Positions 33,061 to 48,768 of a stretch of 53,943 bases of DNA are shown here, piece by piece. How positions within the stretch are numbered: the first letter of the stretch is position 1; each line of letters begins with the position of its first letter. Position numbers and translations under genes: made by a program. Where the stretch lies: IMG/VR virus record IMGVR_UViG_2869947659_000002. One strand, given 5' to 3'. The notes beneath the pieces were generated by a model, which worked only from the letters and a program-made list of their open reading frames with translations, was not told where the DNA came from and searched no databases. The stretch comes from a virus (lineage: Duplodnaviria; Heunggongvirae; Uroviricota; Caudoviricetes).

Positions 33061-33076
33061 CCAGGGAAAATAAGTG

Positions 33077-33153: not shown

Positions 33154-33166
33154 AGGATACAGATAA

Positions 33167-33243
33167 TGGACCGCCTTCGGGGACCCGAACTCCGCGCAAC
33201 CAGCTTCGAAGGCTGGCGCTCTTTCCTGATGAGCTAATGGCGG
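33167..33243 (-). tRNA. tRNA-like gene, probably tRNA-Arg (anticodon UCG), possibly degenerate
   Basis: Anticodon stem-loop CCAGC-CUUCGAA-GCUGG and CCA end, but an A-A mismatch in the acceptor stem and an imperfect T-stem. Confidence 0.5.
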
Positions 33244-33250
33244 TATGTGA

Positions 33251-33326
33251 TGGTGGCCCTTGCTGGATTTGAACCAGCGACCTGGCGATTATGAGTCGCT
33301 CGCTCTCACCACTGAGCTAAAGGGCC
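33251..33326 (-). tRNA. ileZ: tRNA-Ile2/Met-type (anticodon CAU), ileX-like
   Basis: GGCCCUUUAGCUCAGUGGUGAGAGC...CUCAUAA...GGUUCAAAUCC...GGGCCACCA; closely resembles E. coli tRNA-Ile2. Confidence 0.8.
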
Positions 33327-33366
33327 GGGAGCCGCATAATAACGACGCGTAATTAATTCTTCAATA

Positions 33367-34425
33367 TCATCCGTTCTGGCTGACTAAATCCTGTACTTCC
33401 CGAACCGTCTGCTCAAAACGTTCAGTCTCCAGCTCAACGCCAATTGCACGACGCCCGAGCGCCAGTGCCGCTTTCACTGTCGAACCCGACCCCATGAAAA
33501 AATCTGCAATCAGGTCACCCGGACGACTGCTAGCGCTGATTATCTGCTGCAGCATTTCTGCCGGTTTTTCGCACGGATGTTTCCCGGGATAGAACTGCAC
33601 CGGTTTATGCGTCCACACATCGGTATACGGCACCTGCACCGTCACGCCAAAATACCGCCGCAGATGTTTATATTCACTCAGCAGCTCCGCATACTGCCGG
33701 TTCAGTGAGGTATACGTATCCACCAGCTGGTGGTGGAGCTTTTCCAGTTCACCACGCCGATGCTTCTCTTCTGCCACCCGGGCAAACAGCGCCTGTAATT
33801 TCAGATAATCGCTTTCATTCGGCAACTGCCACTGACTGGCACTGAACCAGTGCGACACCATGTTTTTCTTTCCTGTGGCATCTGCAATCTGTTTTGCCGT
33901 TATCCCCAGGGCAGCTCGCGCATCACGAAAGTAAGAAATCAGCGGGGCCATCACATGCTGTTTCAGTGCACTGCCCTTCACCGCATACCCGGCATCTTTC
34001 GGACGATACGGCCCCTGATAATGTTCCGCGAACAGAATGCGCTCTGTGGCGGGGAAATACGCCCGCAGGCTTTCCTTGTTGCATCCGTTCCAGCGTCCGG
34101 ACGGCTTCGCCCAGATAATATGGTTCAGCACACTGAAGCGTTCACGCATCATGATTTCGATATCAGATGCCAGGCGATGACCACAGAACAGGTAAAGACT
34201 TCCGGCAGGTTTCAGCACCCGCCAGAACTGCGCCAGACACTGGTCCAGCCACTTCAGGTAATCATCGTCGCCCTTCCACTGGTTATCCCAGCCCTCAGGC
34301 TTCACTTTAAAGTACGGCGGGTCCGTGACTATCAGGTCAACAGAATTTTCGGGTAACGACCGGATAAATTCCAGGCAGTCGGCGTTGATTAACTCACAAC
34401 TGGATATTTTTACAGTATTAAGCAT
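33367..34425 (-). CDS. DNA methyltransferase (N6-adenine/N4-cytosine type, beta class), no adjacent restriction enzyme
   Basis: 352 aa; motif IV DPPY (IVTDPPYF) near the N-terminus and motif I FFMGSGST near the C-terminus. Confidence 0.85.
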   Translation of the reverse strand: MLNTVKISSCELINADCLEFIRSLPENSVDLIVTDPPYFKVKPEGWDNQWKGDDDYLKWLDQCLAQFWRVLKPAGSLYLFCGHRLASDIEIMMRERFSVLNHIIWAKPSGRWNGCNKESLRAYFPATERILFAEHYQGPYRPKDAGYAVKGSALKQHVMAPLISYFRDARAALGITAKQIADATGKKNMVSHWFSASQWQLPNESDYLKLQALFARVAEEKHRRGELEKLHHQLVDTYTSLNRQYAELLSEYKHLRRYFGVTVQVPYTDVWTHKPVQFYPGKHPCEKPAEMLQQIISASSRPGDLIADFFMGSGSTVKAALALGRRAIGVELETERFEQTVREVQDLVSQNG

Positions 34426-34575
34426 GGATCATTAAGCCTGTCTCTGATAGGCTCATTCTGCTTTTGCGCAAAGCAGTGGGCCTGAGGTTTGCTTGTGATC
34501 CGGACGCATGAGCAGATGGCTGGTGGGTGCCCCTAACACCCACCAGCCGCCCATTTACCACAAATAAAAAAGCCT

Positions 34576-34773
34576 TCACTGCGGAAGGCGTCTGTAACAA
34601 CCGAACTGATAGTCTGCCAGACCCGCCATAACCAGCTGAGTCAGTATTAACTGGCAGCGTTCGCGTGAAAGGTAAGTATTCTGCGCTATCTCCCCGACTG
34701 TCGCCGGGTCGGTAACGCTTAATTCATTAAACACCACTCTGGCGGTTTCTGTCATATCCTGCTGTTTTAGCAT
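34576..34773 (-). CDS. hypothetical small protein (65 aa)
   Basis: ORF between the tR'-like terminator and the DNA methyltransferase gene; no family recognised. Confidence 0.4.
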   Translation of the reverse strand: MLKQQDMTETARVVFNELSVTDPATVGEIAQNTYLSRERCQLILTQLVMAGLADYQFGCYRRLPQ

Positions 34774-34893
34774 GTCTTTTCCTTTTCCGGTTAACGTGAC
34801 ACACCAATAACTCTTGTCGAAAAAGCCAGCAAGCTGAAAGACAGGTATTCACCGCCACCAGCGCGTTTACTGTACTGACGCGATTTCAGTCAT

Positions 34894-34992
34894 AAAAAAC
34901 CCGCCAGGCGGCGGGGTGTAAAAAATCTTCTAACGTCAGGCATAAAACGCCCATCGTTAGAGCAAATTTACCACAGATTCGGGAAAAATCAA
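34894..34992 (-). promoter_or_regulatory. late promoter pR'-like with short leader RNA and tR'-like terminator (Q antitermination module)
   Basis: Minus strand: TTGATT (34992..34987), 16-nt spacer, TAAATT (34970..34965), then hairpin CCCGCC-GCCT-GGCGGG (34915..34900) followed by T6 (34899..34894); directly downstream of the Q-like gene. Confidence 0.6.
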
Positions 34993-34997
34993 CAACA

Positions 34998-35819
34998 CTA
35001 TCGCGTTACCCTCTTTAACTGCCGCTCCGCCCATGCCTCTTCAATGTCAAACCGAACCACCAACGTATCGTAAAAGCGTTTCACTGATTTTTTCCACGTA
35101 TCAAGCGTGATAGCACTCGTCACTTTGCATATGGCATTAAATGCCTCCGTTGATGGCAGCCTTTCACAGCCACGACCACCACAACGCTGGCAATCTCTGA
35201 TAACAGGCATACCACGTTTTACCGACTCTTCACGATGAATGGCGACACCACGCCCACGGCAATCCTTACAGGCGGTGGAAACCTCACCCTTTCCGCCACA
35301 CTCCGGACAGGCAACTTTTACCACCTCCCTGACTTTTTTCCATTCTTCCCAGTAAGACGGATACACGCCTTTTGTGCACTTTGCCCACACTGGTGGCTTA
35401 CCATCCGGATACTGGATCTTGTTTGTAAAAACCTCGCTTTCAATAAATTTTTTTCCGTGACAGCAGGGGCACTGTTTTTTGCTCGCCGCGCTACGGGCAT
35501 AATCTTCAAACGCATACGAAGCCATAATGCGCATCACTACCGGTTTTATTTCTGCCGGAAGTTTTCTCAACGCCGCCACACGATCGCACCGACTGAGTGC
35601 ATAATCTGCCAGTAATTCTGTTGCCCGCGCCCTGTCATTCATACTGATGCCCATTTTCCCCAGGAACGCAGAAAACCCCATCTCAGCCCGATTCTGTGTC
35701 ATGCCCTGCGCGGCCATCACATCAGTGATACTCAGCGCATCTTTTGACGTTGAGGCCGATGCATCGGTCAGGCCAGGGGATTTTGGGGAGTAGTATTTCG
35801 GTAAATCTTCCAGTTTCAT
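34998..35819 (-). CDS. late antiterminator Q-like protein (Cys-rich zinc-binding)
   Basis: 273 aa with several CxxC pairs (CPCCHGKK, CPECGGKG, CKDCRGRG, CQRCGGRG); lies between rusA and the pR'-like promoter. Confidence 0.7.
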   Translation of the reverse strand: MKLEDLPKYYSPKSPGLTDASASTSKDALSITDVMAAQGMTQNRAEMGFSAFLGKMGISMNDRARATELLADYALSRCDRVAALRKLPAEIKPVVMRIMASYAFEDYARSAASKKQCPCCHGKKFIESEVFTNKIQYPDGKPPVWAKCTKGVYPSYWEEWKKVREVVKVACPECGGKGEVSTACKDCRGRGVAIHREESVKRGMPVIRDCQRCGGRGCERLPSTEAFNAICKVTSAITLDTWKKSVKRFYDTLVVRFDIEEAWAERQLKRVTR

Positions 35820-36190
35820 TTTTTGACCTGCTCTTCATGCATTATGGGGTAAATCTTCACCCCCATACGTCCACCAGATACTGGCTGACCACGAACGATA
35901 TTGATTTCATCAAACTGCTCATCGTCCATTAACACTCCCGCATGCGTCAGCGCATCCAGCGGTGCTTTCAGGATATTGTCCAGGTCGCGACGACGCTTAT
36001 CCGGTGGCTCTGCAATCACCTTTATCGCCAGCCTTCCGGACAGGCTTAATTTCAGCCGCTGCTGGCGAACAATAAGCGCCACAGCCCGGCGATAACGCTT
36101 TCCCTCCTCCGAGATAAAATATGTGCTGCCACGGCGTCGCCAGTAAGTGTTCACCGTCGGCGGGTAAGGTAAAACCAAATCTATGAGCAT
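35816..36190 (-). CDS. rusA: Holliday junction resolvase RusA
   Basis: 124 aa with RusA signature ...PPDKRRRDLDNILKAPLDALTHAGVLMDDEQ... Confidence 0.9.
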   Translation of the reverse strand: MLIDLVLPYPPTVNTYWRRRGSTYFISEEGKRYRRAVALIVRQQRLKLSLSGRLAIKVIAEPPDKRRRDLDNILKAPLDALTHAGVLMDDEQFDEINIVRGQPVSGGRMGVKIYPIMHEEQVKK

Positions 36191-36202
36191 CAGTCACCTC
36201 TT

Positions 36203-37249
36203 TTACCCAAGCACGCCAGTTGCAAAGGCGTGATCAAGAAAACGAAAAATTAAATCAACCTGAGAACCATGCTTTTCTTCGAACGCCAGAGGATCCGCAT
36301 GAAGCTCGTTGTGATGCTCCCGACACAGCGGTAGCGTGAAAATATCGTGAGATTTTGTCCCCATTCCGCCCTGACCATGACCAATCAGGTGATGGGGATC
36401 GTCGGCTGGCTTACCACAACACGCACACGGCTGTGTCTTCACCCAGCGTGTGTATTTCTCGTTAACCCAGCGGCGACGTTTAGGTCGTTTCATGAAAGAT
36501 TCCGGAGACTCAGGATCAACGGCAATGCTGACCACCGTCTCTTCCTGTGGCAGGTTTTGCTGGTGGGCGTGAGGCAGCGGCGCAAGATTTTTTGTGCGCT
36601 GCTTCAGTATGCTGGTGGCGGTCTGCTCTCCCGGTACGATGTCGCTTTCACGGTACATTGAGCGGATTTTTTCCGCACGCAACCCCAGCGAACGACGTAA
36701 TACCGCTTCCGGTAGCGCGTCCGCCACCTGATTGCGGACCGCCCACCAGGATAATTCAGCCAGCGATAATTCCCGTTCCTGCGAGCCATTCATTGCATGG
36801 AGTATGACGTCAATCATCCATGCAGACAGGTTTTGGTGAGCAAGTTGCCCGAGTGATTCGGAGGTCTGGTCGCGCAGCTGGTTGTCGCAGTGCCAGCACA
36901 ACACCATTGCGCCGGTACCATAACGGTGAATGACGGTTTCACTGTGGTGATAATCGCCGTGTGGCCACTGGCAGGATTTAACATGGCGCAGTAACCAGTC
37001 AGACAATGCGCCAGCGCCACCAGCAGCACGAATCACTCGTTCGTCGCTGAAAAATGGCAGTAATGATTTATCCTCCGCCAGCGGCTGGCGAACGGCAGGA
37101 ACGACCCCGGACGACAGATTACGCATGCTTTTCGGTTCCGGCTCCACCAGTACCCGGGTATTGTGGAATACCGGCATGGATTCACGGCCCGGCTTAACGA
37201 TCACCAGCCCGAGTTCCGGTACCAGAACAGGTCGAAGTAATACCCGCAC
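36203..37249 (-). CDS. nin-region protein with C-terminal HNH-like motif (YdfU-like by position and size)
   Basis: 348 aa; C-terminal CACCGKPADDPHHLIGHGQGG...CREHHNELH Cys/His cluster. Confidence 0.7.
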   Translation of the reverse strand: MRVLLRPVLVPELGLVIVKPGRESMPVFHNTRVLVEPEPKSMRNLSSGVVPAVRQPLAEDKSLLPFFSDERVIRAAGGAGALSDWLLRHVKSCQWPHGDYHHSETVIHRYGTGAMVLCWHCDNQLRDQTSESLGQLAHQNLSAWMIDVILHAMNGSQERELSLAELSWWAVRNQVADALPEAVLRRSLGLRAEKIRSMYRESDIVPGEQTATSILKQRTKNLAPLPHAHQQNLPQEETVVSIAVDPESPESFMKRPKRRRWVNEKYTRWVKTQPCACCGKPADDPHHLIGHGQGGMGTKSHDIFTLPLCREHHNELHADPLAFEEKHGSQVDLIFRFLDHAFATGVLG

Positions 37250-37250
37250 G

Positions 37251-37529
37251 TTACCTCCAGATACGTTGCTGGAATGTGCGGGACGGACGCGGTGGCCGTT
37301 CGGAGTAAGGGAGCCTGACGGAGATTATCCAGTGACGGTAGTCGAGGCTAAGGGCTTTTTTAACCTCGCATCCGCGCCTGCGGTAACACTGAATGAGCCA
37401 TTCGGCCTGTTCTTCAGTGCATGGGGGGTGCTGGTACCAGTCTGACTTAAATGCATGAGAATACCGCTCGTGCGTGTGGGCAAGAACGGTCGAATTATCA
37501 TGATTGTAATATTTTGCGTTGCGTGCCAT
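37251..37529 (-). CDS. hypothetical nin-region protein (92 aa)
   Basis: ORF immediately upstream of the YdfU-like gene in the same operon; no family recognised. Confidence 0.5.
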   Translation of the reverse strand: MARNAKYYNHDNSTVLAHTHERYSHAFKSDWYQHPPCTEEQAEWLIQCYRRRGCEVKKALSLDYRHWIISVRLPYSERPPRPSRTFQQRIWR

Positions 37530-37595
37530 CGGTTTTCTCCGGTGGCACGGTGTTACTCAGCGGGAGTTCAGCCCCGCGCAAGATTGTAGATGAGT

Positions 37596-37847
37596 TTATT
37601 CTTCTGAAAAAGCAGAAAAGCCAGCTTTTATTCCGATCTCTTTCAATGCCTGTAATGAAGTGACAAACTCACCGTCGCGCAAGATAAATCCGTCCGTCAC
37701 TCGGGCATCCACAAAATTAATTAACGCAGCCCCATTTTTTTGCAAACACACAATGCGGTAATGACTAACAATATTTCCATTTTCAACGCACACAGCATAG
37801 AGGCCATCTTCACAAAAAATTTTACGCAGTTCTTCGATGTTCATCAT
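37596..37847 (-). CDS. small hypothetical protein (83 aa), Rem-like by position
   Basis: Same size and position as rem between hokD and ydfU in Qin. Confidence 0.5.
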   Translation of the reverse strand: MMNIEELRKIFCEDGLYAVCVENGNIVSHYRIVCLQKNGAALINFVDARVTDGFILRDGEFVTSLQALKEIGIKAGFSAFSEE

Positions 37848-37962
37848 CAGAATCCTTCCGGATAATTAGCTCTCCCCTTTAAGGGACCATCCCTCTTATC
37901 CCTGCGCGCTACTTAAGTATTTTTGATTCTATTCCGGCACCGTCCAGAACTTCAAACGCGTT

Positions 37963-37993
37963 GAAAATAAAAACAAAAACCCGCCGAAGCGGG
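37963..37993 (-). terminator. intrinsic terminator at the 3' end of the hok mRNA
   Basis: Minus-strand hairpin CCCGCTTCGGCGGG followed by TTTTTGTTTTTATTTT. Confidence 0.5.
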
Positions 37994-38063
37994 TTAAGTG
38001 CGGGTGCGTTGAGGATGCCTGCCACATCAGAGGTGGCGAGGGATTTCTCCCTCGCCGGGTCTC

Positions 38064-38219
38064 TTACTCCTCAGGTTCGTAAGCTGTGAAGACAGCGACC
38101 TCCGTCTGGCCGGTTCGGATTCGTACCTCGCAGAGGTCTTTCCTCGTTACCAGTGCCGTCACTATGACGGTTAAACAGATGACGATCAGGGCGATTAGCA
38201 TCGCCTTTTGCTGCTTCAT
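38064..38219 (-). CDS. hokD: Hok/Gef-family type I toxin (HokD/RelF-like), with overlapping mok-like frame to 38276
   Basis: MKQQKAMLIALIVICLTVIVTALVTRKDLCEVRIRTGQTEVAVFTAYEPEE; six-frame ORF 38064..38276 gives the mok-like upstream extension. Confidence 0.9.
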   Translation of the reverse strand: MKQQKAMLIALIVICLTVIVTALVTRKDLCEVRIRTGQTEVAVFTAYEPEE

Positions 38220-38961
38220 AGCCTGCTTCTCCTTGCCTTTCGGCACGTAAGAGGCTAACCTACGTGTGTAGAGCATAGATATGGCCTCAGATTAATGTTA
38301 AGCGTCTTGCCGGACGCGTAATGTTAACTGGGGCTTTTCTCTATCTGCCTTTGGTGTTGATGCCCGAGGCAGATAGCCTCAAGCACCCGCAGCAATTCTA
38401 CTTAACTACCGTTACCTCGCCAATATGAAATCAATCAGAAAGGTGATCCATAAGAACAACAGCAAGACAATAAATTGCCATTACAGCAGCAATAGCCAGC
38501 GCACATTTGAGAACCAGCACCACAACCTCCTGTATTGGACGTACACCAGTCCTGATAAATATGAGGCTGTCTCGTCAGTGATTCAATACAACTACTGGGT
38601 ATAGTTTCTATGATTTTGTTCTGTGGAAATGGAAAACAGCAACCAGTCACCACCAGCACTTCTTTAAACATGCCAAGTCACACGCAAGCCAACATTATAG
38701 TTCCCTTTGAGCGAGCAGATGAAGCTAGCAAAAATATTGATCACTTAGGATGCATTACTAACGTTGCTATGTGTTAACGAACAGGGAGTGGGTCATCAGC
38801 ATAAATATTTATGCAGTAGGTTTCTTTTAGGACTAGATTAATCAAAAACATTTAGATAAAATTATAAAATCAAGAAATTGGTGGCAATTAATCTTTAATT
38901 GTGCCAGCTGAATTTCGTTATTATAGAAGATTAGCTTTTTTTTGAATGTTTGGAGAGTAAA

Positions 38962-39657
38962 ATGTTAGAACCACCAAAGAGTTATAATGAAATGTTGCCT
39001 ATGCTCCATAAGGCGACTTTTATTACTACATTTATATTTTACCTATCATTAGTCATTTATGGCTACATGCCATTGGTTGGCATTAATGCCAAGTATATCC
39101 TCCCCGTTAAAGACTACGAGGAATTTATTAAATGGATATTAACCTTTGGCATATTACCAATTGCATCTTCAGTTTTTTGGTCAGTAATTAGTGGAGCTTT
39201 AGATCTACATAATAATGTAGCAAAAATTATTGGAATAAGGAAGATGTGGGATAGTCATTTAATTATTAAACCATTAGCAAAAATTGCAGGCGTTACGAGA
39301 AAATTAACTACTGATGAATCTCACAAGGTAATGAGTAAACTGTATTACCCAGAAGTTAAAGAGTTAAAAGACAAACATTACGTTGAACTTTTCTGGAACA
39401 AAGTTTATTACTTTTGGGTTTTCTTTGAACATACAGTAATCGCATTTGTTACTATTTTAATAATAAGTATCGCCAAATTAACAAATATATTCTCTGTTAC
39501 TGGCTCTTTAATTAATCTTTGGTTGTGGATTATTTCTCTTGTCGCATTTGACTTCCTTATTTTCATAGCATCAGTTAAACCAAGAACAGAAAGCCAAGTA
39601 AGACAAATACCTGATAGCAAAATAAAAGAATTCTTTAACAATAACAATATTTTTTAA
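38962..39657 (+). CDS. hypothetical integral membrane protein (about 4 TM), AT-rich cargo
   Basis: ATG 38962 after GGAGAG; hydrophobic segments ATFITTFIFYLSLVIYGYMPLVGI, WILTFGILPIASSVFWSVISGAL, VYYFWVFFEHTVIAFVTILIISIA, LINLWLWIISLVAFDFLIFIASV; very low GC. Confidence 0.7.
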   Translation: MLEPPKSYNEMLPMLHKATFITTFIFYLSLVIYGYMPLVGINAKYILPVKDYEEFIKWILTFGILPIASSVFWSVISGALDLHNNVAKIIGIRKMWDSHLIIKPLAKIAGVTRKLTTDESHKVMSKLYYPEVKELKDKHYVELFWNKVYYFWVFFEHTVIAFVTILIISIAKLTNIFSVTGSLINLWLWIISLVAFDFLIFIASVKPRTESQVRQIPDSKIKEFFNNNNIF

Positions 39658-39663
39658 ACGAGG

Positions 39664-40323
39664 TTGATTTTGAATTACAAAATAAATGGAATAAACATAC
39701 GTTCAGAAAATGCAGCGAAACCGCACACTATGCCATCTAACTATCTCTGTAAACAGATTGAAAGCACTAATAAAAATGGCAATGCCCTTGATTTTGGATG
39801 TGGAAAACTTAGATATTCAGAACAATTAGTAAATAAATTTGAAACTGTGACATTTTTAGATTCCAGAAGACAACTAGAAAGAGTGCAAATTATCAGAGGT
39901 GTACAAACCACGATTCCAGATTACGTGATAAATAACTATAAGAATGCTAATATTGTTTCTTATGAAAATATAGATAAAATAACAAATCATTATGATTTCA
40001 TACTTTGCACAAACGTGCTTTCCGCAATTCCATGTGAATCCACAATTCACAAAGTCCTCAGTGCGATTAGAGAATTATTAAAGAGTGATGGTGAAGCACT
40101 GATTGTCAATCAATACAAAAGTTCTTATTTCAAGAGGTACGAGAGCGGTATTAAACATTTGCATGGGTATATATACCAAAACTCTCGTAATGCTTTCTAC
40201 TATGGTTTATTAGATGTGGATACTGTAAGTAAAATATGCTCAGATAATAATTTAGAAATAATAAAATCATGGAGCAAAGCAGGTAGTTCATATGTGGTTG
40301 TTGGTAAACATATACATATTTAG
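39664..40323 (+). CDS. hypothetical protein with class I SAM-methyltransferase fold, AT-rich cargo
   Basis: Motif I-like ALDFGCGKL, acidic post-I (TFLDS), motif II-like YDFILCTNVLSAIP; starts 6 bp after the membrane protein gene. Confidence 0.7.
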   Translation: MILNYKINGINIRSENAAKPHTMPSNYLCKQIESTNKNGNALDFGCGKLRYSEQLVNKFETVTFLDSRRQLERVQIIRGVQTTIPDYVINNYKNANIVSYENIDKITNHYDFILCTNVLSAIPCESTIHKVLSAIRELLKSDGEALIVNQYKSSYFKRYESGIKHLHGYIYQNSRNAFYYGLLDVDTVSKICSDNNLEIIKSWSKAGSSYVVVGKHIHI

Positions 40324-40638
40324 TTTATTTCAACAAATTATTAGAAAGAGTGATTTGCTTGTTAATTATTAGCTCGGCAGTGCCGGATCGACATGACCCT
40401 GCCACTTAGGCCATTGCCGGTTTACCTACTTTTGTAAGGTTCTGCATGAAGTTTTTATATACTCTTCCTAATATCAATAGTGATGCTCGCTTATGTTAGC
40501 TGCTTCTTGTACATAGTAGCCTTCTCCGACAGTACTGCAATGAGCGGAGAGTAAAAGTCGATAAACAATAAGGAGGTTCACAATAAATATTTCTCGGTGA
40601 AACTTTCAAAGCATTCTCTGTTTTGCTAAATCGACCAA

Positions 40639-41539
40639 TTATAAATCAACAACATTTAGTGTTATATCAATATTATTTAGCCTTGCAATCTCTGATGAAT
40701 CACTTGCTATTTTAGCTTTTAATTTATCAATATTAATCATATCTTCATGGCTTATATAAACCATATCACCTTGGTTAACTTTAGATTTGTTCACTATGGC
40801 TTGAATAACAGACAAATCATCCATTACACCTCTCATAAATTTCACCATGCTTTGATCTTTGAAGTCAGATATCGATTTTGAACGTTGCTTACGTTGAATT
40901 GTTCCTTTTGTAATTACTTCATTAATTTCTTTTAAACCAGTGAGCATATCAGACAGACTGCCTTCGCAACTCATCCGATGTTTTATTGCATTGCGATTAA
41001 TAATATTGAGTATAATTTCGAGTGAATCTTTATCACTCCATGGATGTAATGATGTATAATCATGATGGCGTCGAATGGCGTCAATCATATCCTGGACCAT
41101 ATCTTCATCTGCTTTATCGCAAAGTTCATTCACGAAATAGCTGGGGTCGATTATTTTACAATAACTTGGAGTTAGGTATCTTGAGGCTTTACAAAAACCA
41201 AAAATATATAAAGTAGAGTATTTATCTTTCAGACTCTCTCCTATTTCATTTGTTTCCTCAAAAGATTCGATAGTTTTTTTTAATTTTTGCTGGACTTGCA
41301 TTCGTAGTAACTTGAACTGCTATCATGTTTTTATTATCAGCTAAATCAATGGCGGGAAAATTAACTTTAATCTGATTCATGTTTACCAGTTCACCCATTT
41401 TCAGCGCGCGAAACATAAAGATGGTCAATGACTCAATTATTCTTTCCATGTCATGAAAGCCTGCCTGTTTGCGTTGCGCGATATAAAGCTGGAGTAGTGC
41501 AATATCACTCTGTAAGTTTCTAATAAGTGGATCAATCAT
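40639..41539 (-). CDS. hypothetical protein split into two ORFs (41258..41539 and 40639..41301) by a 1-nt frame change at an A8 tract
   Basis: ATG 41539 with AAAGGA RBS; upstream frame stops just after the A8 run (plus-strand T8 at 41274..41281); contraction to A7 would give one ORF of about 305 aa; second ORF has no RBS of its own. Confidence 0.5.
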
Positions 41540-41791
41540 AGCTAATAATCCTTTTCAATGAAGCTGGAGGTGTGTTTAACTATTAGTTAAATTTCTATTT
41601 TTATAGAAACAAGCTTTACAACTTCATCAAAGTTTCTCAAATCCTAATCCACTTTGCAAATCCACTAACCATGCTGAATGCTTTCTGTTGTTAAACATAT
41701 CCGCTGCTGGCACCAAGCAGACAAACACACTAACTCTACCCTACTCCACAAAAGAGCCAATCAATATCTGAACTAATAAACTTTAATCTCA

Positions 41792-42214
41792 TCACTTCAA
41801 TAAATATCGAGCATTTCCCTGATAGAATGCTAGTATGCGCTGCATAACTTCACTCTTCCGGCACTCGCGACAGATTATGTTCTGACGCCTGTCGTAGCGA
41901 CGTATTTCTCCGTCAGGTAATGACCAGATAAGGTCCGGATCAACCGCAGATGGTTCCTTCAGCTTTGCCCTTGAGAGCTTTTTACGGGCATTTTGCCAGT
42001 CCTTACGCGCCTGTTCAGACGGGAATAACCCGTAACCAGAGTTGTATACATCGCCGCTGGCAACCAGCTCTCTTGCGAGAACGCTCATCAGATATCTTGT
42101 CGCACCTGTCTTGACTTCCAGTTGCCGTAACGTCTCACGACCGCTCTGGCGCACGAGTTCCACCACCTGCCCTTTAATTTTTTCCCGCTCTTCTTGTGTA
42201 AAAACTTTTGCCAC
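41792..42214 (-). CDS. hypothetical early-region protein (140 aa)
   Basis: ORF downstream of the replication-initiator-like gene; basic, contains CRECRK; no family recognised. Confidence 0.5.
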   Translation of the reverse strand: MAKVFTQEEREKIKGQVVELVRQSGRETLRQLEVKTGATRYLMSVLARELVASGDVYNSGYGLFPSEQARKDWQNARKKLSRAKLKEPSAVDPDLIWSLPDGEIRRYDRRQNIICRECRKSEVMQRILAFYQGNARYLLK

Positions 42215-42254
42215 AAGTCCCCCTTAAAATTACCTCATGACCTGAAATCAAAAC

Positions 42255-43274
42255 TTATCCTCTGAAACCAGGCGGAATTTCTGTATCCGGTTCAGAAATA
42301 TGATTAACACAACGCTGTACAGGTGAACGCCCCAGGCGGATGACCAGTTCGTCCCATTTTTCGCGGAGCTTTGACGGGCTCATGATGTTTTTTACCCAGA
42401 ACGGATCCCGCTGTACCCGACCAAACATTTCACAAATTTGTCTGTGGCTTCTGCCATCCAGCATCCGCATTGTGCGCACATCATTGGCCCAGACAGTCCA
42501 GTTAGGCTCTTTTGGTCGCATGATCTCGCCATCATCACTGGCGGCCTGTTCGTAGAGACCCACGATCCGCCCCCATATCCACTGCGCACACGCCAGATCC
42601 TCCTGGCTACCCCACTGGCGTTTTTTCGCACTAAACACAACTGCGCCAGGGTGCCGGATTAAAAAATCCTGTTCAGCCGTCTGCGGGTCCGGTTGCGAAG
42701 CTTCCGGACGAAAAGTGTTTTTATTCTCTGTAGTAATCTCTGTTGTATTCTCTGTAGGATCATCGGGCCATTTTGACCCGATGACATTGGGTCGTTTTGA
42801 ACCAATGGAGCGTTTCATTTTGACCTCTTCCATCGTGTCATTTTGACCTGATGGAGCGGCGCATTTTGAACCGATGGATTCGCTCAATTTGCCATCATCT
42901 AAAAGCTCGCTCCCATAGTTAATCGTGTAGAAATTGGTCATATCGCGCTTTGATTTATTGAGCTTTTCACAACGCAAGAGCCCCAGCGTTTTCAGACTTG
43001 CAAACGCGCGCTTTAACGTTGACTCTGACCAGAATGGGAACTGTTCCAGCCATTGTTCCGTTGTGTTGTAAATCCAGCGAACACCATCACATTCCATGCC
43101 GGAATTGGTATCTCTCAACCAGTAATGCAACTGCTGCAACACAATGGCTTCATTTAAGCCAATCTTCATCGCAAGCTGTGTGTTTATAACCAGTGGGCGT
43201 TCAGCAAAAAGAAGGCTCATAATTCCATCCAGCTTTTTGTTGGTATTGCTGTCGATACGCAAGTTTGAAAGCAA
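42255..43274 (-). CDS. putative phage replication initiation / replisome organizer protein
   Basis: 339 aa; N-terminal region (...LNEAIVLQQLHYWLRDT...) resembles replisome-organizer N-domains; position downstream of cro-like gene. Confidence 0.5.
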   Translation of the reverse strand: MLSNLRIDSNTNKKLDGIMSLLFAERPLVINTQLAMKIGLNEAIVLQQLHYWLRDTNSGMECDGVRWIYNTTEQWLEQFPFWSESTLKRAFASLKTLGLLRCEKLNKSKRDMTNFYTINYGSELLDDGKLSESIGSKCAAPSGQNDTMEEVKMKRSIGSKRPNVIGSKWPDDPTENTTEITTENKNTFRPEASQPDPQTAEQDFLIRHPGAVVFSAKKRQWGSQEDLACAQWIWGRIVGLYEQAASDDGEIMRPKEPNWTVWANDVRTMRMLDGRSHRQICEMFGRVQRDPFWVKNIMSPSKLREKWDELVIRLGRSPVQRCVNHISEPDTEIPPGFRG

Positions 43275-43722
43275 TTGCTTTTTCTATAAGTTCGTCAGTT
43301 TCACGATCCACTACGGCAGGATCAGCAAAAAGCAGTCCGGACTCCACCACATCGCCATATTCTTTGTTTAACCCGGCGATCATGTACGTGATGCTTTTTC
43401 CGTCACTAATTTCACGATACAACCTGAAATCATTAATCCGGATAGCCTCCATAATTGCAGGCACTAGCGCCGTGAACTTTTCACGCTTATCCCTGGTGTC
43501 GATAGCCTTCCAGCGTTCGAATATCTTCACTCGATTAACGCCAAGCGCTCGCTGATCAACCGCGCCACCTTCATCTGTGACACGCTGAACATCGATGTTC
43601 GGGCGCTCTTTCAAAGCCCAGAATGCTTCAGTGATTAATATCGTCGCCTGCTCCTGTGTCATTCCTGGTCGACATATCCAGGCATCCAGAGCCTCACGAG
43701 CCTGTTCAGGAGTGATTTTCAT
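43201..43722 (-). CDS. hypothetical early-region protein (173 aa)
   Basis: ORF immediately downstream of dicC; no family recognised. Confidence 0.5.
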   Translation of the reverse strand: MKITPEQAREALDAWICRPGMTQEQATILITEAFWALKERPNIDVQRVTDEGGAVDQRALGVNRVKIFERWKAIDTRDKREKFTALVPAIMEAIRINDFRLYREISDGKSITYMIAGLNKEYGDVVESGLLFADPAVVDRETDELIEKAIAFKLAYRQQYQQKAGWNYEPSFC

Positions 43723-43933
43723 TGTTCAACCGCCCCGCCCGCTTCGTCTTACGATATTCGTCATAAACCTTGGGATCATACAGAAGCTCGCCGCCAGATG
43801 CCTCCTGTAGACGCATCGCGCGACCTTCAGGAACTAGCTCTTGCCATTGAGAAACAGCAGATGGGTCAACGCCAGCAGCTTTCGCTACTTTGGCTTTCGT
43901 ACCGTAAAAATTAATTACGTCTGATTTAAACAT
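43706..43933 (-). CDS. dicC: Cro-like repressor DicC
   Basis: From MFKSDVINFYGTKAKVAKAAGVDPSAVSQWQ...VPEGRAMRLQEASGGELLYDPKVYDEYRKTKRAGRLNNENHS; divergent from dicA; six-frame ORF extends to 43960. Confidence 0.8.
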   Translation of the reverse strand: MFKSDVINFYGTKAKVAKAAGVDPSAVSQWQELVPEGRAMRLQEASGGELLYDPKVYDEYRKTKRAGRLNNENHS

Positions 43934-44010
43934 CGCACCTCCAATATTGAGTTTTCTCAATGCTAATCACTCAAGGAATCTCAAGTCAAGGATTATTAAG
44001 ATATCTAAAT
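43934..44010. promoter_or_regulatory. immunity-region operator/promoter region between dicC and dicA
   Basis: Contains 14-bp palindrome TTGAGTTTTCTCAA (43947..43960) and CTCAAG half-site repeats; related sites recur at the pL-like promoter. Confidence 0.5.
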
Positions 44011-44418
44011 ATGAACGAGAAAACTTTAGGTCAACGCATTAGAGAAAGACGTAAGCAGGTAGGCTTAAGTCAAAACGGTTTAAGCAAAGCTGCTGGCGTA
44101 TCTGGCTCATCAATTTCATTATGGGAAAGTGACCATACAGCCCCGCGCGGGCAAAATTTGCATCGCCTCGCCGAGGTATTGCAATGTTCACCAACCTGGA
44201 TACTGTTTGGCGACGAGGACAAAACACCAGCTCCCCCTGTTTCACTCGATAGTACCCTAGACTTATCGGAAGATGAGTTAGAGATGCTGCGTTTGTATCG
44301 CGCACTTCCTAAATCAGAGCAACAAGCACAACTCAGCGAACTCCGCGCCCGCGTTGAGAATTTTAATCGCCTGTTCACCGAGCTATTAGAGGCTCGCAAA
44401 CGCAACAAGCATCAATAA
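44011..44418 (+). CDS. dicA: prophage repressor DicA (CI-like HTH)
   Basis: MNEKTLGQRIRERRKQVGLSQNGLSKAAGVSGSSISLWESDHTAPRGQNLHRLAEVLQCSPTWILFGDEDK..., 135 aa. Confidence 0.85.
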   Translation: MNEKTLGQRIRERRKQVGLSQNGLSKAAGVSGSSISLWESDHTAPRGQNLHRLAEVLQCSPTWILFGDEDKTPAPPVSLDSTLDLSEDELEMLRLYRALPKSEQQAQLSELRARVENFNRLFTELLEARKRNKHQ

Positions 44419-44505
44419 TCATCCCTTCACAAAATTTTAAAGCCTTACATTTCAATGTATTGGCTTTATCTTGCGCCAACACTTGAGTTTTCTCATCAAA
44501 AAACC

Positions 44506-44534
44506 TTGACGAAAAATAATGAGAAAACTAAATT
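44506..44534 (+). promoter_or_regulatory. pL-like early-left promoter with overlapping operator-like sites
   Basis: TTGACG (44506..44511), 17-nt spacer, TAAATT (44529..44534); flanked by TTGAGTTTTCTCA (44484..44496) and its near-inverse TGAGAAAACTAA. Confidence 0.45.
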
Positions 44535-44610
44535 ACCTCCATCAACACACCGCACGGTGTTCTCCGCAAACAGTTCCGCTACCCCGGCGTTAAGGGGAAA
44601 TGAGGTCAGC

Positions 44611-44766
44611 ATGGATACTATCGATCTTGGCAACAACGAATCTCTGGTGTACGGCGTGTTTCCAAACCAGGACGGCACGTTCACCGCAATGACGTATACC
44701 AAAAGCAAAACGTTTAAAACCGAAAATGGTGCCCGTCGCTGGCTGGAAAGAAACTCAGGTGAGTGA
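44611..44766 (+). CDS. ydfA: small prophage protein YdfA-like (51 aa)
   Basis: ATG 44611 with GAGG RBS; size and position after dicA as in Qin; the upstream part of six-frame ORF 44455..44766 overlaps the promoter. Confidence 0.7.
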   Translation: MDTIDLGNNESLVYGVFPNQDGTFTAMTYTKSKTFKTENGARRWLERNSGE

Positions 44767-44767
44767 T

Positions 44768-44896
44768 ATGGATTTCGACACAATCATGGAAAAGGCTTAC
44801 GAAGAATACTTCGAAGGCCTTGCCGAAGGCGAAGAAGCTCTCAGCTTCAGTGAGTTTAAACAGGCGCTTTCCAGCTCGGCAAAATCTAACGGCTGA
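44768..44896 (+). CDS. ydfB: small prophage protein YdfB-like (42 aa)
   Basis: ATG overlapping the ydfA stop (TGATATG); MDFDTIMEKAYEEYFEGLAEGEEALSFSEFKQALSSSAKSNG. Confidence 0.65.
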   Translation: MDFDTIMEKAYEEYFEGLAEGEEALSFSEFKQALSSSAKSNG

Positions 44897-44925
44897 TAAG
44901 CGAAGCAGCACCGCGAGGAATCAGT

Positions 44926-45144
44926 ATGCAGAAACGAGAACCCGTCATCATCGCGCCAGACTATACCGATGATGAACTTTATGAGTGGATGCACCAGAAA
45001 ATTAATGCAGCGCAGGATCTGAAATGGGCCAATGAAGCCAGGGCTAAGCAGGCTGAAAATCTGTCCGCTCTGGAGCAGGATATCACTAATCTGGAAAAAG
45101 CAGCGGCATTAAGCATTGCCAGAATGATTACATACCCGCGTTAA
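44926..45144 (+). CDS. ydfC: small prophage protein YdfC-like (72 aa)
   Basis: 72-aa ORF immediately upstream of the DicF precursor region. Confidence 0.7.
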   Translation: MQKREPVIIAPDYTDDELYEWMHQKINAAQDLKWANEARAKQAENLSALEQDITNLEKAAALSIARMITYPR

Positions 45145-45485
45145 TAGCTAACCAACGAAGCTAAGGTTGGTAATTAAGGAGTTCTCCACGGGTGAGGTGG
45201 AGTGCGTGCGCCGGACACGGGTGAGCATCCGGCACTGACAGTTTACTGAAAGGATATTTCCCTGAAAAGTCAGACCATAACGCGAAAGCGCACGGCGAGG
45301 TAGCTGGTTCATAGATAGCCTGTCGTTAAATTTTCGTCGACCGTGCGCTTCCGGTTGTGGCAATCCGCGAAATGGCGCGGCGGTAAGTATGGCGGGGTTA
45401 TTCCTTCCACCGTTGAGGACACCGGGTTGTCAGGTTGACCATACGCTTAAGTGACAACCCCGCTGCAACGCCCTCTGTTATCAAT

Positions 45486-45543
45486 TTTCTGGTGACGTTT
45501 GGCGGTATCAGTTTTACTCCGTGACTGCTCTGCCGCCCTTTTT
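45486..45543 (+). ncRNA. dicF: DicF small regulatory RNA (53-nt mature form plus U-tail)
   Basis: Exact match to the DicF sequence as I recall it: TTTCTGGTGACGTTTGGCGGTATCAGTTTTACTCCGTGACTGCTCTGCCGCCC followed by TTTTT. Confidence 0.85.
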
Positions 45544-45751
45544 AAAGTGAATTTTGTGATGTGGTGAATGCGGCTGAGCGCACGCGGAACAGTTAAAACC
45601 AAAAACAGTGTTATGGGTGGATTCTCTGTATCCGGCGTTAATTGTTAACTGGTTAACGTCTAGACTGGCCCCCTGAATCTCCAGACAACCAGTATCACTT
45701 AAATAAGTGATAGTCTTAATACTAGTTTTTAGACTAGTCATTGGAGTACAG

Positions 45752-46117
45752 ATGATTGATGTCTTAGGGCCGGAGAAACGCAGACGGCGTACCACACAGG
45801 AAAAGATCGCAATTGTTCAGCAGAGCTTTGAACCGGGGATGACGGTCTCCCTCGTTGCCCGGCAACATGGTGTAGCAGCCAGCCAGTTATTTCTCTGGCG
45901 TAAGCAATACCAGGAAGGAAGTCTTACTGCTGTGGCCGCCGGAGAACAGGTTGTTCCTGCCTCTGAACTTGCTGCCGCCATGAAGCAGATTAAAGAACTC
46001 CAGCGCCTGCTCGGCAAGAAAACGATGGAAAATGAACTCCTCAAAGAAGCCGTTGAATATGGACGGGCAAAAAAGTGGATAGCGCACGCGCCCTTATTGC
46101 CCGGGGATGGGGAGTAA
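45752..46117 (+). CDS. insC: IS2 OrfA (InsC)
   Basis: Identical to copy 1 InsC. Confidence 0.9.
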
Positions 46118-46980
46118 GCTTAGTCAGCCGTTGTCTCCGGGTGTCGCGTGCGCAGTTGCACGTCATTCTCAGACGAACCGATGACTGGATGGATGGCCGC
46201 CTCAGTCGTCACACTGATGATACGGATGTGCTTCTCCGTATACACCATGTTATCGGAGAGCTGCCCACGTATGGTTATCGTCGGGTATGGGCGCTGCTTC
46301 GCAGACAGGCAGAACTTGATGGTATGCCTGCGATCAATGCCAAACGTGTTTACCGGATCATGCGCCAGAATGCGCTGTTGCTTGAGCGAAAACCTGCTGT
46401 ACCGCCATCGAAACGGGCACATACAGGCAGAGTGGCCGTGAAAGAAAGCAATCAGCGATGGTGCTCTGACGGGTTCGAGTTCTGCTGTGATAACGGAGAG
46501 AGACTGCGTGTCACGTTCGCGCTGGACTGCTGTGATCGTGAGGCACTGCACTGGGCGGTGACTACCGGCGGCTTCAACAGTGAAACAGTACTGGACGTCA
46601 TGCTGGGTGCGGTGGAACGCCGCTTCGGCAACGATCTTCCGTCGTCTCCAGTGGAGTGGCTGACGGATAATGGTTCATGCTACCGGGCTAATGAAACACG
46701 CCAGTTCGCCCGGATGTTGGGACTTGAACCGAAGAACACGGCGGTGCGGAGTCCGGAGAGTAACGGAATAGCAGAGAGCTTCGTGAAAACGATAAAGCGT
46801 GACTACATCAGTATCATGCCCAAACCAGACGGGTTAACGGCAGCAAAGAACCTTGCAGAGGCGTTCGAGCATTATAACGAATGGCATCCGCATAGTGCGC
46901 TGGGTTATCGCTCGCCACGGGAATATCTGCGGCAGCGGGCTTGTAATGGGTTAAGTGATAACAGATGTCTGGAAATATAG
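46075..46980 (+). CDS. insD: IS2 transposase OrfB (InsD)
   Basis: Identical to copy 1 InsD. Confidence 0.95.
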
Positions 46981-47048
46981 GGGCAAATCCAACGTCACCT
47001 GGAGGCACCAGGCACCGCATCACAAAATTCATTGTTGAGGACGCGATA

Positions 47049-47237
47049 ATGAAAACGTTATTACCAAACGTTAATACGTCTGAAGGTTGTTTTGAAATTG
47101 GTGTCACTATCAGTAACCCAGCATTTACTGAAGATGCCATTAACAAGAGAAAACAAGAACGGGAGCTATTAAATAAAATATGCATTGTTTCAATGCTGGC
47201 TCGTTTACGTCTGATGCCAAAAGGATGTGCACAATGA
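47049..47237 (+). CDS. dicB: cell division inhibitor DicB
   Basis: MKTLLPNVNTSEGCFEIGVTISNPAFTEDAINKRKQERELLNKICIVSMLARLRLMPKGCAQ (62 aa); six-frame ORF starts inside IS2. Confidence 0.85.
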   Translation: MKTLLPNVNTSEGCFEIGVTISNPAFTEDAINKRKQERELLNKICIVSMLARLRLMPKGCAQ

Positions 47238-47425
47238 ATTCAGCATTTGTGCTTGTTCTGACAGTTTTTCTTGTTTCCGGAGAGCCAGTTGATATTGCAG
47301 TCAGTGTTCACAGGACAATGCAGGAGTGTATGACTGCAGCAACCGAACAGAAAATTCCCGGTAACTGTTACCCGGTCGATAAAGTTATTCACCAGGATAA
47401 TATCGAAATCCCGGCAGGTCTTTAA
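47234..47425 (+). CDS. ydfD: small secreted/lysis-associated protein YdfD-like
   Basis: MNSAFVLVLTVFLVSGEPVDIAVSVHRTMQECMTAATEQKIPGNCYPVDKVIHQDNIEIPAGL; ATG overlaps the dicB stop. Confidence 0.75.
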   Translation: MNSAFVLVLTVFLVSGEPVDIAVSVHRTMQECMTAATEQKIPGNCYPVDKVIHQDNIEIPAGL

Positions 47426-48430
47426 AACAGTTCCGTAATAAATATCCGGTTTCATTCTTATATGCCAGCAATGGCAGGGATTTGTTCATCCTTAAATCTG
47501 TCATGAGGTTAAAACAAATGAGTAAAGTCTTTATTTGCGCCGCTATTCCTGACGAACTGGCAACAAGGGAAGAAGGCGCTGTGGCTGTAGCCACAGCCAT
47601 TGAAGCTGGCGACGAACGCCGTGCTCGAGCAAAATTTCACTGGCAATTCCTGGAACATTATCCGGCTGCTCAGGACTGCGCTTATAAATTTATTGTCTGC
47701 GAGGATAAACCTGGCATACCCCGCCCTGCCCTCGATTCATGGGATGCTGAATATATGCAGGAAAACCGCTGGGATGAGGATTCTGCTTCTTTTGTCCCGG
47801 TTGAGACTGAATCCGATCTGATGAACGTCACTTTTGACAAGCTGGCCCCTGAAGTACAGAACGCTCTCATGGTTAAGTTCGACACATGTGAAAACATCAC
47901 CGTTGATATGGTTATTAGCGCACAGGAATTGTTGCAGGAAGACATGGCAACATTCGACGGCCATATCGTTGAAGCGTTGATGAAAATGCCAGAAGTTAAC
48001 GCCATGTATCCGGAGCTTAAGTTGCATGCCATTGGGTGGGTTAAGCATAAATGTATTCCTGGTGCTAAATGGCCCGAAATTCAGGCAGAGATGCGCATCT
48101 GGAAAAAACGTCGTGAAGGTGAACGCAAGGAAACCGGAAAATACACGTCTGTTGTTGATCTTGCCCGCGCCAGAGCCAATCAACAGTACACTGAAAATTC
48201 AACAGGAAAAATCAGCCCGGTCATTGCTGCCATTCATCGCGAATACAAGCAGACATGGAAAACACTGGATGACGAACTGGCCTACGCTCTCTGGCCTGGT
48301 GATGTGGATGCCGGAAACATTGACGGCAGCATCCATCGCTGGGCAAAAAATGAAGTTATCGACAACTGAGGTAGCCTGAGTTTAACGGACACTCCTTCCT
48401 GAAATAGAATGGCATCAGAAGGAGCTAATA

Positions 48431-48733
48431 ATGAGCAGAAAAAACCAACGTTACTCTAAAGAGTTCAAAGCCGAAGCTGTCAGAACGGTTCTTGAAAATC
48501 AACTTTCGATCAGTGAAGGCGCTTCCCGATTATCCCTTCCTGAAGGCACTTTAGGACAATGGGTTACCGCCGCCAGAAAAGGGCTCGGTACTCCTGGTTC
48601 CCGCACGGTGGCTGAACTGGAATCTGAAATTCTGCAACTGCGTAAGGCGTTAAATGAAGCTCGCCTTGAGCGAGATATATTAAAAAAAGCAACAGCGTAT
48701 TTTGCACAGGAGTCGCTGAAAAATACGCGTTAA
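48431..48733 (+). CDS. IS3-family OrfA
   Basis: Identical to 4529..4831. Confidence 0.9.
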   Translation: MSRKNQRYSKEFKAEAVRTVLENQLSISEGASRLSLPEGTLGQWVTAARKGLGTPGSRTVAELESEILQLRKALNEARLERDILKKATAYFAQESLKNTR

Positions 48734-48768
48734 TCGAACAATGGCGACAACAATTTCCCATTGAAGCG

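What the first reader, a model, noticed from the sequence alone, without database searches (positions are those of the whole stretch)
40639..41539. Unknown AT-rich gene split exactly at an A8 homopolymer tract
ORFs 41258..41539 and 40639..41301 overlap by 44 bp in different frames, and the frame change falls in a run of eight A on the coding strand (plus-strand T8 at 41274..41281). Contraction to A7 would give a single ORF of about 305 aa with a good RBS. This may be a pseudogene, a sequencing error at a homopolymer, or a slipped-strand on/off switch. The protein has no family I can assign and converges on the membrane/methyltransferase pair.
Basis: partly seen in the sequence, partly recalled or inferred. 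Interest (0 to 1): 0.7.

Follow-up and report, generated by a model that had tools for sequence, protein, structure and literature searches.

The report
Frameshifted prophage SMEK nuclease gene
The two overlapping ORFs are one ordinary 299-residue prophage gene for an Mrr-like (SMEK) nuclease-domain protein, knocked out of frame by one extra A in a slippage-prone run of seven A's; nothing indicates a designed on/off switch.

Summary
ORFs 41539..41258 and 41301..40639 on the minus strand overlap by 44 nt, and the frame change lies in an A8 run (plus-strand T8, 41274..41281). Removing one A gives a 299-aa ORF, not 305 aa.

The protein does have a family. It is a SMEK domain protein (Pfam PF21941, NCBIfam NF033859) with an Mrr-like nuclease fold, and the domain match runs across the break. 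Homologues from many Proteobacteria are single ~293-305 aa proteins. They sit alone in defence or mobile islands with changing neighbours.

The window is 100% identical over 20,282 bases (31258..51539) to CP026766.1, which carries a Shigella boydii-specific allele. Draft assemblies of the same lineage all have the intact A7 gene. One of them differs from the window over 12.3 kb only by this base and one SNP. The extra A is therefore private to this assembly: either a very recent slippage mutation or a single homopolymer miscall.

Among 146 complete E. coli genomes the tract is A7 in 134, A6 in 11 and A8 in 1. A8 recurs on at least three haplotypes, so the run is a real indel hot spot. However, the run is not conserved in the family, it is short, and it is stable within lineages.

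Verdict: an ordinary hot-spot frameshift, of low interest. The uncharacterised stand-alone SMEK family is the more useful lead.

The parts
40639..41539 (-). Whole frameshifted SMEK-domain gene (901 nt here; 900 nt and 299 aa when intact)
   Evidence: Searches give the ORF geometry. Searches give the family matches on the repaired protein. RefSeq annotates an intact 900-nt CDS, WP_000566847.1, at the same place in E. coli.
41258..41539 (-). N-terminal fragment ORF (93 aa). It keeps the conserved E36, D65, Q76 and K85 but ends after ...AKIKK+NYRIF, and so loses the rest of the SMEK fold.
   Evidence: invariant columns. In the model, strand 109-118 and the Pfam match to aa 120 lie beyond the break. 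This exact 93-aa product is found on 53 contigs.
41274..41281 (-). A8 homopolymer (T8 on the plus strand), the site of the +1 insertion. The in-frame allele is A7, encoding K-I-K-K-T (AAA ATT AAA AAA ACT).
   Evidence: Population counts are A7 134, A6 11 and A8 1 of 146 complete E. coli genomes.
40639..41273 (-). C-terminal 211 codons of the gene, now out of frame with the start. They encode the end of the SMEK domain plus a helical-bundle C-terminal domain. The listed ORF reaches back to an ATG at 41301 that has no RBS.
41549..41553 (-). Shine-Dalgarno-like AAGGA, 9 nt upstream of the ATG at 41539
   Evidence: Read directly.
40635..40635 (.). Extra C, 4 nt after the stop codon, relative to E. 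coli copies. It is a real sub-lineage marker in S. boydii and is also present in a draft assembly with the intact gene.
38600..41700 (.). AT-rich cargo island of the lambdoid prophage that carries the gene. It also holds a 4-TM protein gene at 38962..39657 (+) and a class I SAM methyltransferase gene at 39670..40323 (+).
   Evidence: GC is 0.29-0.36 against 0.45-0.55 in the flanks. Annotation. Pfam results.

Best explanation
This is one gene, not two. It is a 299-aa stand-alone SMEK-domain protein: an Mrr-like PD-(D/E)xK nuclease fold followed by a helical-bundle domain. It is carried as AT-rich cargo in a Qin/Rac-like lambdoid prophage of Shigella boydii (CP026766.1).

In the functional allele the conserved peptide K-I-K-K-T is written AAA ATT AAA AAA ACT, which creates an A7 run. 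Replication slippage added one A in the sequenced isolate. Translation from the normal start now ends after 93 residues. The remaining 211 codons have no ribosome-binding site of their own, so the allele is null: a very young pseudogene.

Shown here: the gene identity, the position of the break inside the domain, the privacy of the A8 to this assembly, and recurrent A6/A8 alleles elsewhere.

Inferred: that the change is a true mutation rather than a consensus error, that the truncated product is inactive, and that the intact protein is a defence or abortive-infection nuclease. The last point rests on the SMEK effector role in short-Argonaute systems and on the defence-island neighbourhoods.
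For: - Family assignment with the match spanning the break. A PDB profile hit to the Mrr domain of the Kordia jejudonensis Mrr-APAZ pAgo partner, E=1.5e-12.
- 108 homologues, almost all single proteins of 293-305 aa, with K85 and T89 invariant on either side of the break.
- The repaired protein is identical to the commonest intact allele, seen on at least 1000 contigs.
- The window is 100% identical to CP026766.1. Its methyltransferase allele is specific to S. boydii.
- All other same-lineage contigs read have the intact 299-aa gene. L041 differs from the window over 12.3 kb by one SNP plus this one base.
- There are no indels against five same-lineage draft assemblies over another 13-16.7 kb, so the assembly is not generally error-prone.
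- A8 alleles occur in independent draft and short-read-style assemblies on at least three haplotype backgrounds that also have A7. One distinguishing site is only 18-22 nt from the run. A6 alleles are found in 11 complete genomes and on 214 contigs.
- Indel rate rises exponentially with homopolymer length in E. coli (PMC8510543).
Against: - The only A8 copy in this lineage is the complete genome. Its sequencing platform is not shown by the tools. If it is a long-read assembly, a single homopolymer miscall would look exactly the same.
- No read data could be inspected.
- No further disabling mutation has accumulated in the gene. That fits a very recent event, but it equally fits an error or a reversible state.
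Confidence: 0.55

Rival explanations
1. Assembly or base-calling error. The strain really has A7 and an intact gene, and the extra A is a homopolymer consensus error in the complete-genome assembly.
For: - All other same-lineage contigs read carry A7, and only the complete genome carries A8.
- Two NCTC assemblies (L024, L028) with A8 also show split neighbouring genes, such as the exonuclease, YdaT and DUF968 genes. That is consistent with indel errors.
- The gene carries no other defect.
Against: - Across about 27 kb compared with same-lineage draft assemblies, this is the only indel. Seven other homopolymers of 7-8 bases, including the T8 at 38936..38943, agree.
- The same A8 allele occurs in many draft and Logan assemblies of other lineages, so the mutation does occur in nature.
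Confidence: 0.3
2. Contingency (phase-variable) locus. The A-run is an evolved slipped-strand switch that reversibly turns a costly or toxic nuclease gene on (A7) and off (A6, A8) within populations.
For: - Tract length is polymorphic, with A6, A7 and A8 alleles.
- A8 arose on at least three haplotypes.
- Off alleles carry no other lesions in the gene, so they are revertible in principle.
- The gene family sits in defence islands, where on/off variation would be plausible.
Against: - The run is not conserved. Homologues encode KINKT, KIEKT, KIDKT or KVRHT with no run at this site.
- The on state is only A7, which is short for an A/T switch in a mismatch-repair-proficient enterobacterium (my own knowledge).
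- 134 of 146 complete genomes are on, and 11 of the 12 off alleles share one tract length (A6). The two of these examined lie on one haplotype and share a second frameshift in the neighbouring gene.
- Lineages are uniform: 8 related chicken isolates are all A6, and all S. boydii draft contigs read are A7.
- A nearby non-coding T8 shows at most 4 variants in 146 genomes, which is of the same order in number of events.
Confidence: 0.1
3. A 'pseudo-pseudogene'. The A8 allele still makes some full-length protein, either because RNA polymerase slips on the A8/T8 run and drops one A, or because tRNA-Lys shifts +1 on AAA AAA A.
For: - A one-base loss in the mRNA, or a +1 shift from AAA to AAA, would give exactly the wild-type K-I-K-K-T-I-E sequence (read).
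- Productive slippage on runs of 8-9 A, and frame restoration of frameshift alleles, are documented (PMC1088944).
Against: - The frameshifted arrangement is not conserved. It is a rare allele, and the family is a single ORF.
- Eight A's is at the low end for efficient slippage.
- No expression data exist.
- This would be incidental leakiness, not a designed mechanism.
Confidence: 0.05

Closest known systems
SMEK domain-containing proteins (Pfam PF21941 SMEK_N; NCBIfam NF033859), e.g. RefSeq WP_000566847.1
   Same: The repaired protein is identical to WP_000566847.1. Profile scores are far above the cut-offs (80.3 bits against 27; 106.4 against 30). The conserved E, D, Q-x-T and K residues are present.
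   Different: In this window the gene is broken at codon 88 by one extra A. No member of this stand-alone ~300-aa subfamily was found to be characterised in the literature searched.
SMEK/Mrr-APAZ effector of short prokaryotic Argonaute systems (SPARDA-type; Kordia jejudonensis KjAgo partner; PDB 26bh)
   Same: The N-terminal nuclease domain is homologous (family profile against 26bh_D, E=1.5e-12, with the motif NFPAIDLAD...QxTS...KI shared). PADLOC model Aga_REase-PNTD1-PNTD2 matches at 1e-20. In that system the domain is a collateral nuclease effector (PMC10810196, PMC12205087).
   Different: Only profile positions 9-143 of 463 in the PADLOC model match, so there is no APAZ part. No Argonaute gene lies nearby. 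The C-terminal half is an unrelated helical bundle. It may work like an activated nuclease effector, but it is not a member of that system.
Homopolymer frameshift pseudogenes in Shigella and E. coli prophages (ordinary gene decay)
   Same: A single-base indel in a mononucleotide run, inside a cryptic prophage that is also cut by several IS elements, in a genome carrying a Shigella boydii-specific allele.
   Different: The same run has mutated repeatedly (A6 and A8) in other lineages, which makes it a notable hot spot.
Slipped-strand contingency loci (e.g. phase-variable restriction-modification and surface genes of Haemophilus, Neisseria, Campylobacter)
   Same: A coding mononucleotide run whose length differs between isolates and sets the reading frame.
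   Different: The run is short (A7 when on), is not conserved in orthologues, and is stable within lineages, and the host has mismatch repair. No within-culture heterogeneity has been shown.

Membership tests
SMEK domain family (PF21941 / NF033859) | Profile match above the curated cut-off | tested here: met
   Repaired protein: Pfam 80.3 bits (cut-off 27), NCBIfam 106.4 bits (cut-off 30).
SMEK domain family (PF21941 / NF033859) | Conserved core residues (E36, N60, D65, Q76, T78, K85, T89) present | tested here: met
SMEK domain family (PF21941 / NF033859) | Domain encoded as one uninterrupted reading frame in this window | tested here: not met
   The frame breaks at codon 88, inside the domain. 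The window copy is a disrupted member.
Short-pAgo nuclease system (SMEK-APAZ + short Argonaute, SPARDA-type) | APAZ region fused to the nuclease domain | tested here: not met
   The PADLOC Aga_REase-PNTD1-PNTD2 model matches only its positions 9-143 of 463. There is no Pfam hit on the C-terminal half, and the model there is a helical bundle.
Short-pAgo nuclease system (SMEK-APAZ + short Argonaute, SPARDA-type) | Adjacent short Argonaute (MID-PIWI) gene | tested here: not met
   The neighbours are a DUF977 gene and a methyltransferase plus 4-TM pair. No PIWI gene appears in any of the loci examined.
Slipped-strand contingency (phase-variable) locus | Tract length differs between isolates and sets the frame | tested here: met
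   A7 134, A6 11, A8 1 of 146 complete E. coli genomes. A8 is found on at least 3 haplotypes.
Slipped-strand contingency (phase-variable) locus | Repeat tract conserved at the site among orthologues | tested here: not met
   Enterobacter, Pseudomonas, Vibrio and other enterobacterial homologues have no run at this site. The Citrobacter koseri homologue has an in-frame A8.
Slipped-strand contingency (phase-variable) locus | Frequent on/off differences among closely related isolates | tested here: not met
   [not shown]
Slipped-strand contingency (phase-variable) locus | Length heterogeneity within one culture (read level) at a high switching rate | not testable with these tools
   No read data or cultures are available.
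Programmed recoding gene (transcriptional slippage or ribosomal frameshift, e.g. mxiE, dnaX, IS3 transposases) | Two-frame arrangement conserved among homologues | tested here: not met
   The family is a single ORF. The split arrangement is a minority allele.
Restriction-modification pair (Mrr-like nuclease plus DNA methyltransferase) | Conserved linkage to a DNA methyltransferase | tested here: not met
   The convergent methyltransferase matches small-molecule-type class I SAM families (Methyltransf_23/12, TehB), not DNA methylase families. It is absent next to homologues in other genera.

The most novel reading that the evidence does not exclude
The A7 run in this prophage-borne Mrr-like nuclease gene acts as a low-rate, reversible evolutionary toggle. 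A6 and A8 alleles silence a costly abortive-infection effector. A8 alleles keep a trickle of full-length protein through RNA-polymerase slippage, and reversion re-arms the gene. This would make it a contingency locus for a single-gene phage-defence candidate in E. coli and Shigella.
Probability: 0.08. Interest if true: 0.6.

Novelty: new member of a known kind. Interest (0 to 1): 0.25.

Why it matters
For annotation, the two ORFs should be merged into one disrupted SMEK gene, and the '220-aa hypothetical protein' entries are artefacts of the frameshift.

Biologically, the frameshift itself is routine gene decay or a single miscall.

Two side results have modest value. First, this A-run is a demonstrable recurrent indel hot spot, with A6, A7 and A8 alleles on several haplotypes. 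That makes it a convenient natural marker of slippage, and a caution for anyone counting defence genes as present or absent. Second, the intact gene belongs to a widespread stand-alone family (SMEK nuclease domain plus helical bundle) that keeps turning up beside CBASS, Lamassu-like, Abi and toxin-antitoxin genes, and for which the literature searches found no published functional test. That makes it a reasonable single-gene defence candidate to test.

Tried and rejected
- **Two separate genes.** Rejected: homologues are single proteins, the domain spans the junction, and there is no RBS for the second ORF.
- **Functional triad with the convergent membrane/methyltransferase pair, or an R-M-like system.** Rejected: the pair is absent from homologues' neighbourhoods, and the methyltransferase is not of a DNA-methylase family.
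- **Member of a short-Argonaute system.** Rejected: no APAZ region and no pAgo gene.
- **Known named defence system.** PADLOC gave only the partial REase-domain hit. PHROGs gave only a weak hit of unknown function. There was no match in the phage genome collection.
- **Literature searches.** Searches for the accession and for the PADLOC label 'PNTD1' found nothing useful.
- **Structure prediction on the repaired sequence.** It was redone with the 99%-identical P0001 as the first row.
- **Promoter and terminator scan.** The simple scan found no convincing promoter in the 252-nt gap upstream of the gene and no terminator between the convergent genes. How the gene is transcribed is unresolved.

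Full report
**1. The observation**

On the minus strand, an ORF runs from the ATG at 41539 to 41258 (93 aa). A second ORF runs from 41301 to 40639 (220 aa). They overlap by 44 nt in different frames. The coding strand has eight A's at 41281..41274.

Deleting one A joins the two into a 299-aa ORF. Adding one A does not restore the frame.

The first ORF has AAGGA 9 nt upstream of its ATG. The ATG at 41301 has no such sequence before it.

The window holds only six homopolymers of 8 or more bases, and protein-family matches span the junction (below). The coincidence of frame change and run is therefore real.

**2. What the gene is**

The repaired protein matches:
- Pfam SMEK_N (PF21941): E=1.6e-22, aa 10-120, 80.3 bits against a cut-off of 27.
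- NCBIfam NF033859: E=4.9e-31, aa 5-97, 106.4 bits against a cut-off of 30.
- PADLOC model Aga_REase-PNTD1-PNTD2: 1e-20, but only over the first 143 of its 463 positions.

The break at codon 88 therefore lies inside the domain.

A profile of the family hits one solved structure, the Mrr domain of the Kordia jejudonensis Mrr-APAZ partner of a short Argonaute (26bh_D, E=1.5e-12). The motif NFPAIDLAD...QxTS...KI is shared. In the literature, SMEK is the Mrr-like nuclease effector domain of some short-pAgo systems (PMC10810196; bioRxiv 10.1101/2023.06.08.544223; PMC12205087).

**3. Homologues**

A search returned 108 relatives, nearly all 293-305 aa. They come from Enterobacterales, Pseudomonas, Vibrio, Burkholderiales and Xanthomonas, and all carry the SMEK_N domain. 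In a 39-sequence alignment, 26 columns are invariant, including E36, N60, D65, Q76, T78, K85 and T89. The frameshift falls between K85 and T89. The ancestral state is one gene.

The neighbours change from genome to genome. They include integrases and resolvases, a CBASS pair (SMODS + S_4TM), LmuB_C/MC3/CTD7 genes, AAA_21 ATPases, Abi_alpha, SLATT_5 and SymE/TacA. The gene therefore stands alone in mobile or defence islands. The convergent 4-TM protein and class I SAM methyltransferase occur with it only in the E. coli/Shigella prophage island.

**4. Context and source**

The gene lies in an AT-rich island (GC 0.29-0.36, about 38600-41700). The island sits in a Qin/Rac-like lambdoid prophage, between the replication-side genes (Cro, YdaT, DUF977) and hokD, rem, DUF968, RusA and the antiterminator.

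The window is 100% identical over 20,282 bases to CP026766.1. Its methyltransferase allele is reported only from Shigella boydii. Several IS3-family insertions cut the prophage.

**5. Is the extra A real in this genome?**

The exact methyltransferase allele of this lineage is indexed in 73 blocks of the collection. In the 24 contigs read, every draft assembly has an intact 299-aa SMEK gene, and only CP026766.1 is split.

One draft contig (GCA_013996715.1, L041) matches the window over 12.3 kb (33334..45657), except for one SNP and T7 instead of T8 at the tract. Five S. boydii draft assemblies covering another 13-16.7 kb of the window show no indels at all, and one is identical over 14,479 nt.

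So the assembly is not generally indel-prone, and the A8 is private to it. That leaves a very recent slippage mutation in the sequenced isolate (I put this at about 0.55) or a single homopolymer consensus error (about 0.3). I cannot separate these without reads.

**6. The tract in the population**

Of 5,426 complete E. coli genomes, 146 carry a copy at 99% identity or higher. The run is A7 in 134, A6 in 11 and A8 in 1 (strain L65, annotated as two CDSs exactly as in the window).

In the large protein collection:
- the exact 93-aa A8 fragment is on 53 contigs;
- the 95-aa A6 fragment is on 214 contigs;
- the intact allele is on at least 1000 contigs.

Ten A8 loci, from different prophage insertion sites and including draft and Logan assemblies, fall on at least three haplotype backgrounds that also have A7 members. 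One distinguishing site is only 18-22 nt from the run, so recombination is an unlikely explanation and recurrent +1 slippage is the likely one. The two A6 loci examined (L003, L004) share one haplotype and a second one-base deletion in the neighbouring replication gene. That points to one inherited event.

This behaviour fits the known exponential rise of indel rate with run length in E. coli (PMC8510543).

**7. Is it a switch?**

For:
- The tract length varies and does so recurrently.
- Off alleles carry no other damage in the gene.

Against:
- The run is a by-product of Lys-Lys-Thr written with AAA codons. Homologues with KINKT, KIEKT, KIDKT or KVRHT have no run. The Citrobacter koseri homologue has an in-frame A8 at the same place.
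- 92% of complete genomes are in frame.
- Lineages are uniform. Eight related chicken isolates are all A6, and all S. boydii draft contigs read are A7.
- A nearby non-coding T8 (38936..38943) shows at most 4 variants in 146 genomes. That is of the same order as the number of events at the coding run.

I rate an evolved contingency switch at about 0.1.

Incidental rescue of the A8 allele by RNA-polymerase slippage or a +1 tRNA-Lys shift is chemically possible, since either would regenerate K-I-K-K-T-I-E. It has precedent on 8-9 A runs (PMC1088944). It would be leakiness rather than design (about 0.05).

**8. How the intact protein probably works (inference)**

The conserved E, D, Q-x-T and K set is shared with the pAgo-associated SMEK/Mrr domain, which there acts as a collateral nuclease. 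Together with the defence-island settings, this suggests a stand-alone nuclease effector whose helical C-terminal domain senses or regulates.

It is not a member of the Argonaute systems, because it has no APAZ region and no pAgo gene. No experimental work on this subfamily was found.

**9. Verdict**

This is an ordinary hot-spot frameshift, or a single miscall, in an already annotated gene family. The novelty is limited to one more instance of a known kind. Interest is 0.25.

Noticed in passing
window 38962..40323 (+): A 4-TM protein gene (no family in Pfam, NCBIfam, PADLOC or PHROGs) and a class I SAM methyltransferase gene (Methyltransf_23/12, TehB-like; weak PADLOC mad2 hit, 1e-4). They form a tight pair in the same AT-rich island, convergent with the SMEK gene. 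Function is unknown. The pair is not seen beside SMEK homologues in other genera.
   Followed up: partly
window ~45752-46980, 48364-49632, 50104-51371; also 1837-3168 and 3632-4895: Multiple IS3-family insertions (HTH_Tnp_1 + rve ORFs; near-identical copies inside the window). They cut the prophage early-left region. The exonuclease gene is in pieces and the dicB ORF is lengthened to 90 aa. The prophage is decaying.
   Followed up: partly
window 40635: An extra C, 4 nt after the SMEK stop codon, relative to all E. coli copies. It is also present in one S. boydii draft assembly (L041) with the intact gene and absent in two others, so it is a true sub-lineage marker and not an error.
   Followed up: yes
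window 41575..41609: Two adjacent perfect palindromes (TTTAACTA-T-TAGTTAAA and TTTCTAT-AAAA-ATAGAAA) 36-70 nt upstream of the SMEK start codon. They might be an operator or mere AT-rich chance. The simple scan found no promoter in this 252-nt gap.
   Followed up: no
window 38936..38943: A non-coding T8 just upstream of the 4-TM gene. It is T9 in one Logan assembly (L031), and 142 of 146 complete E. coli genomes match exactly. I used it as a rough neutral control for homopolymer variability.
   Followed up: yes
[not shown]
   Followed up: partly
L014 6001-6906 (Citrobacter koseri homologue); L011 (Pseudomonas): The C. koseri homologue (49% identity) carries an in-frame A8 at the same K-I-K-K-T codons (ATA AAA AAA ACA). 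The Pseudomonas homologue has an in-frame A8 elsewhere. Long A-runs are tolerated in intact members of this family.
   Followed up: yes
L024, L028 (NCTC assemblies GCA_900448385.1, GCA_900449295.1): These assemblies show several split genes around the locus (exonuclease, YdaT, DUF968). Their A8 calls may be assembly errors and should not be counted as independent natural events.
   Followed up: no
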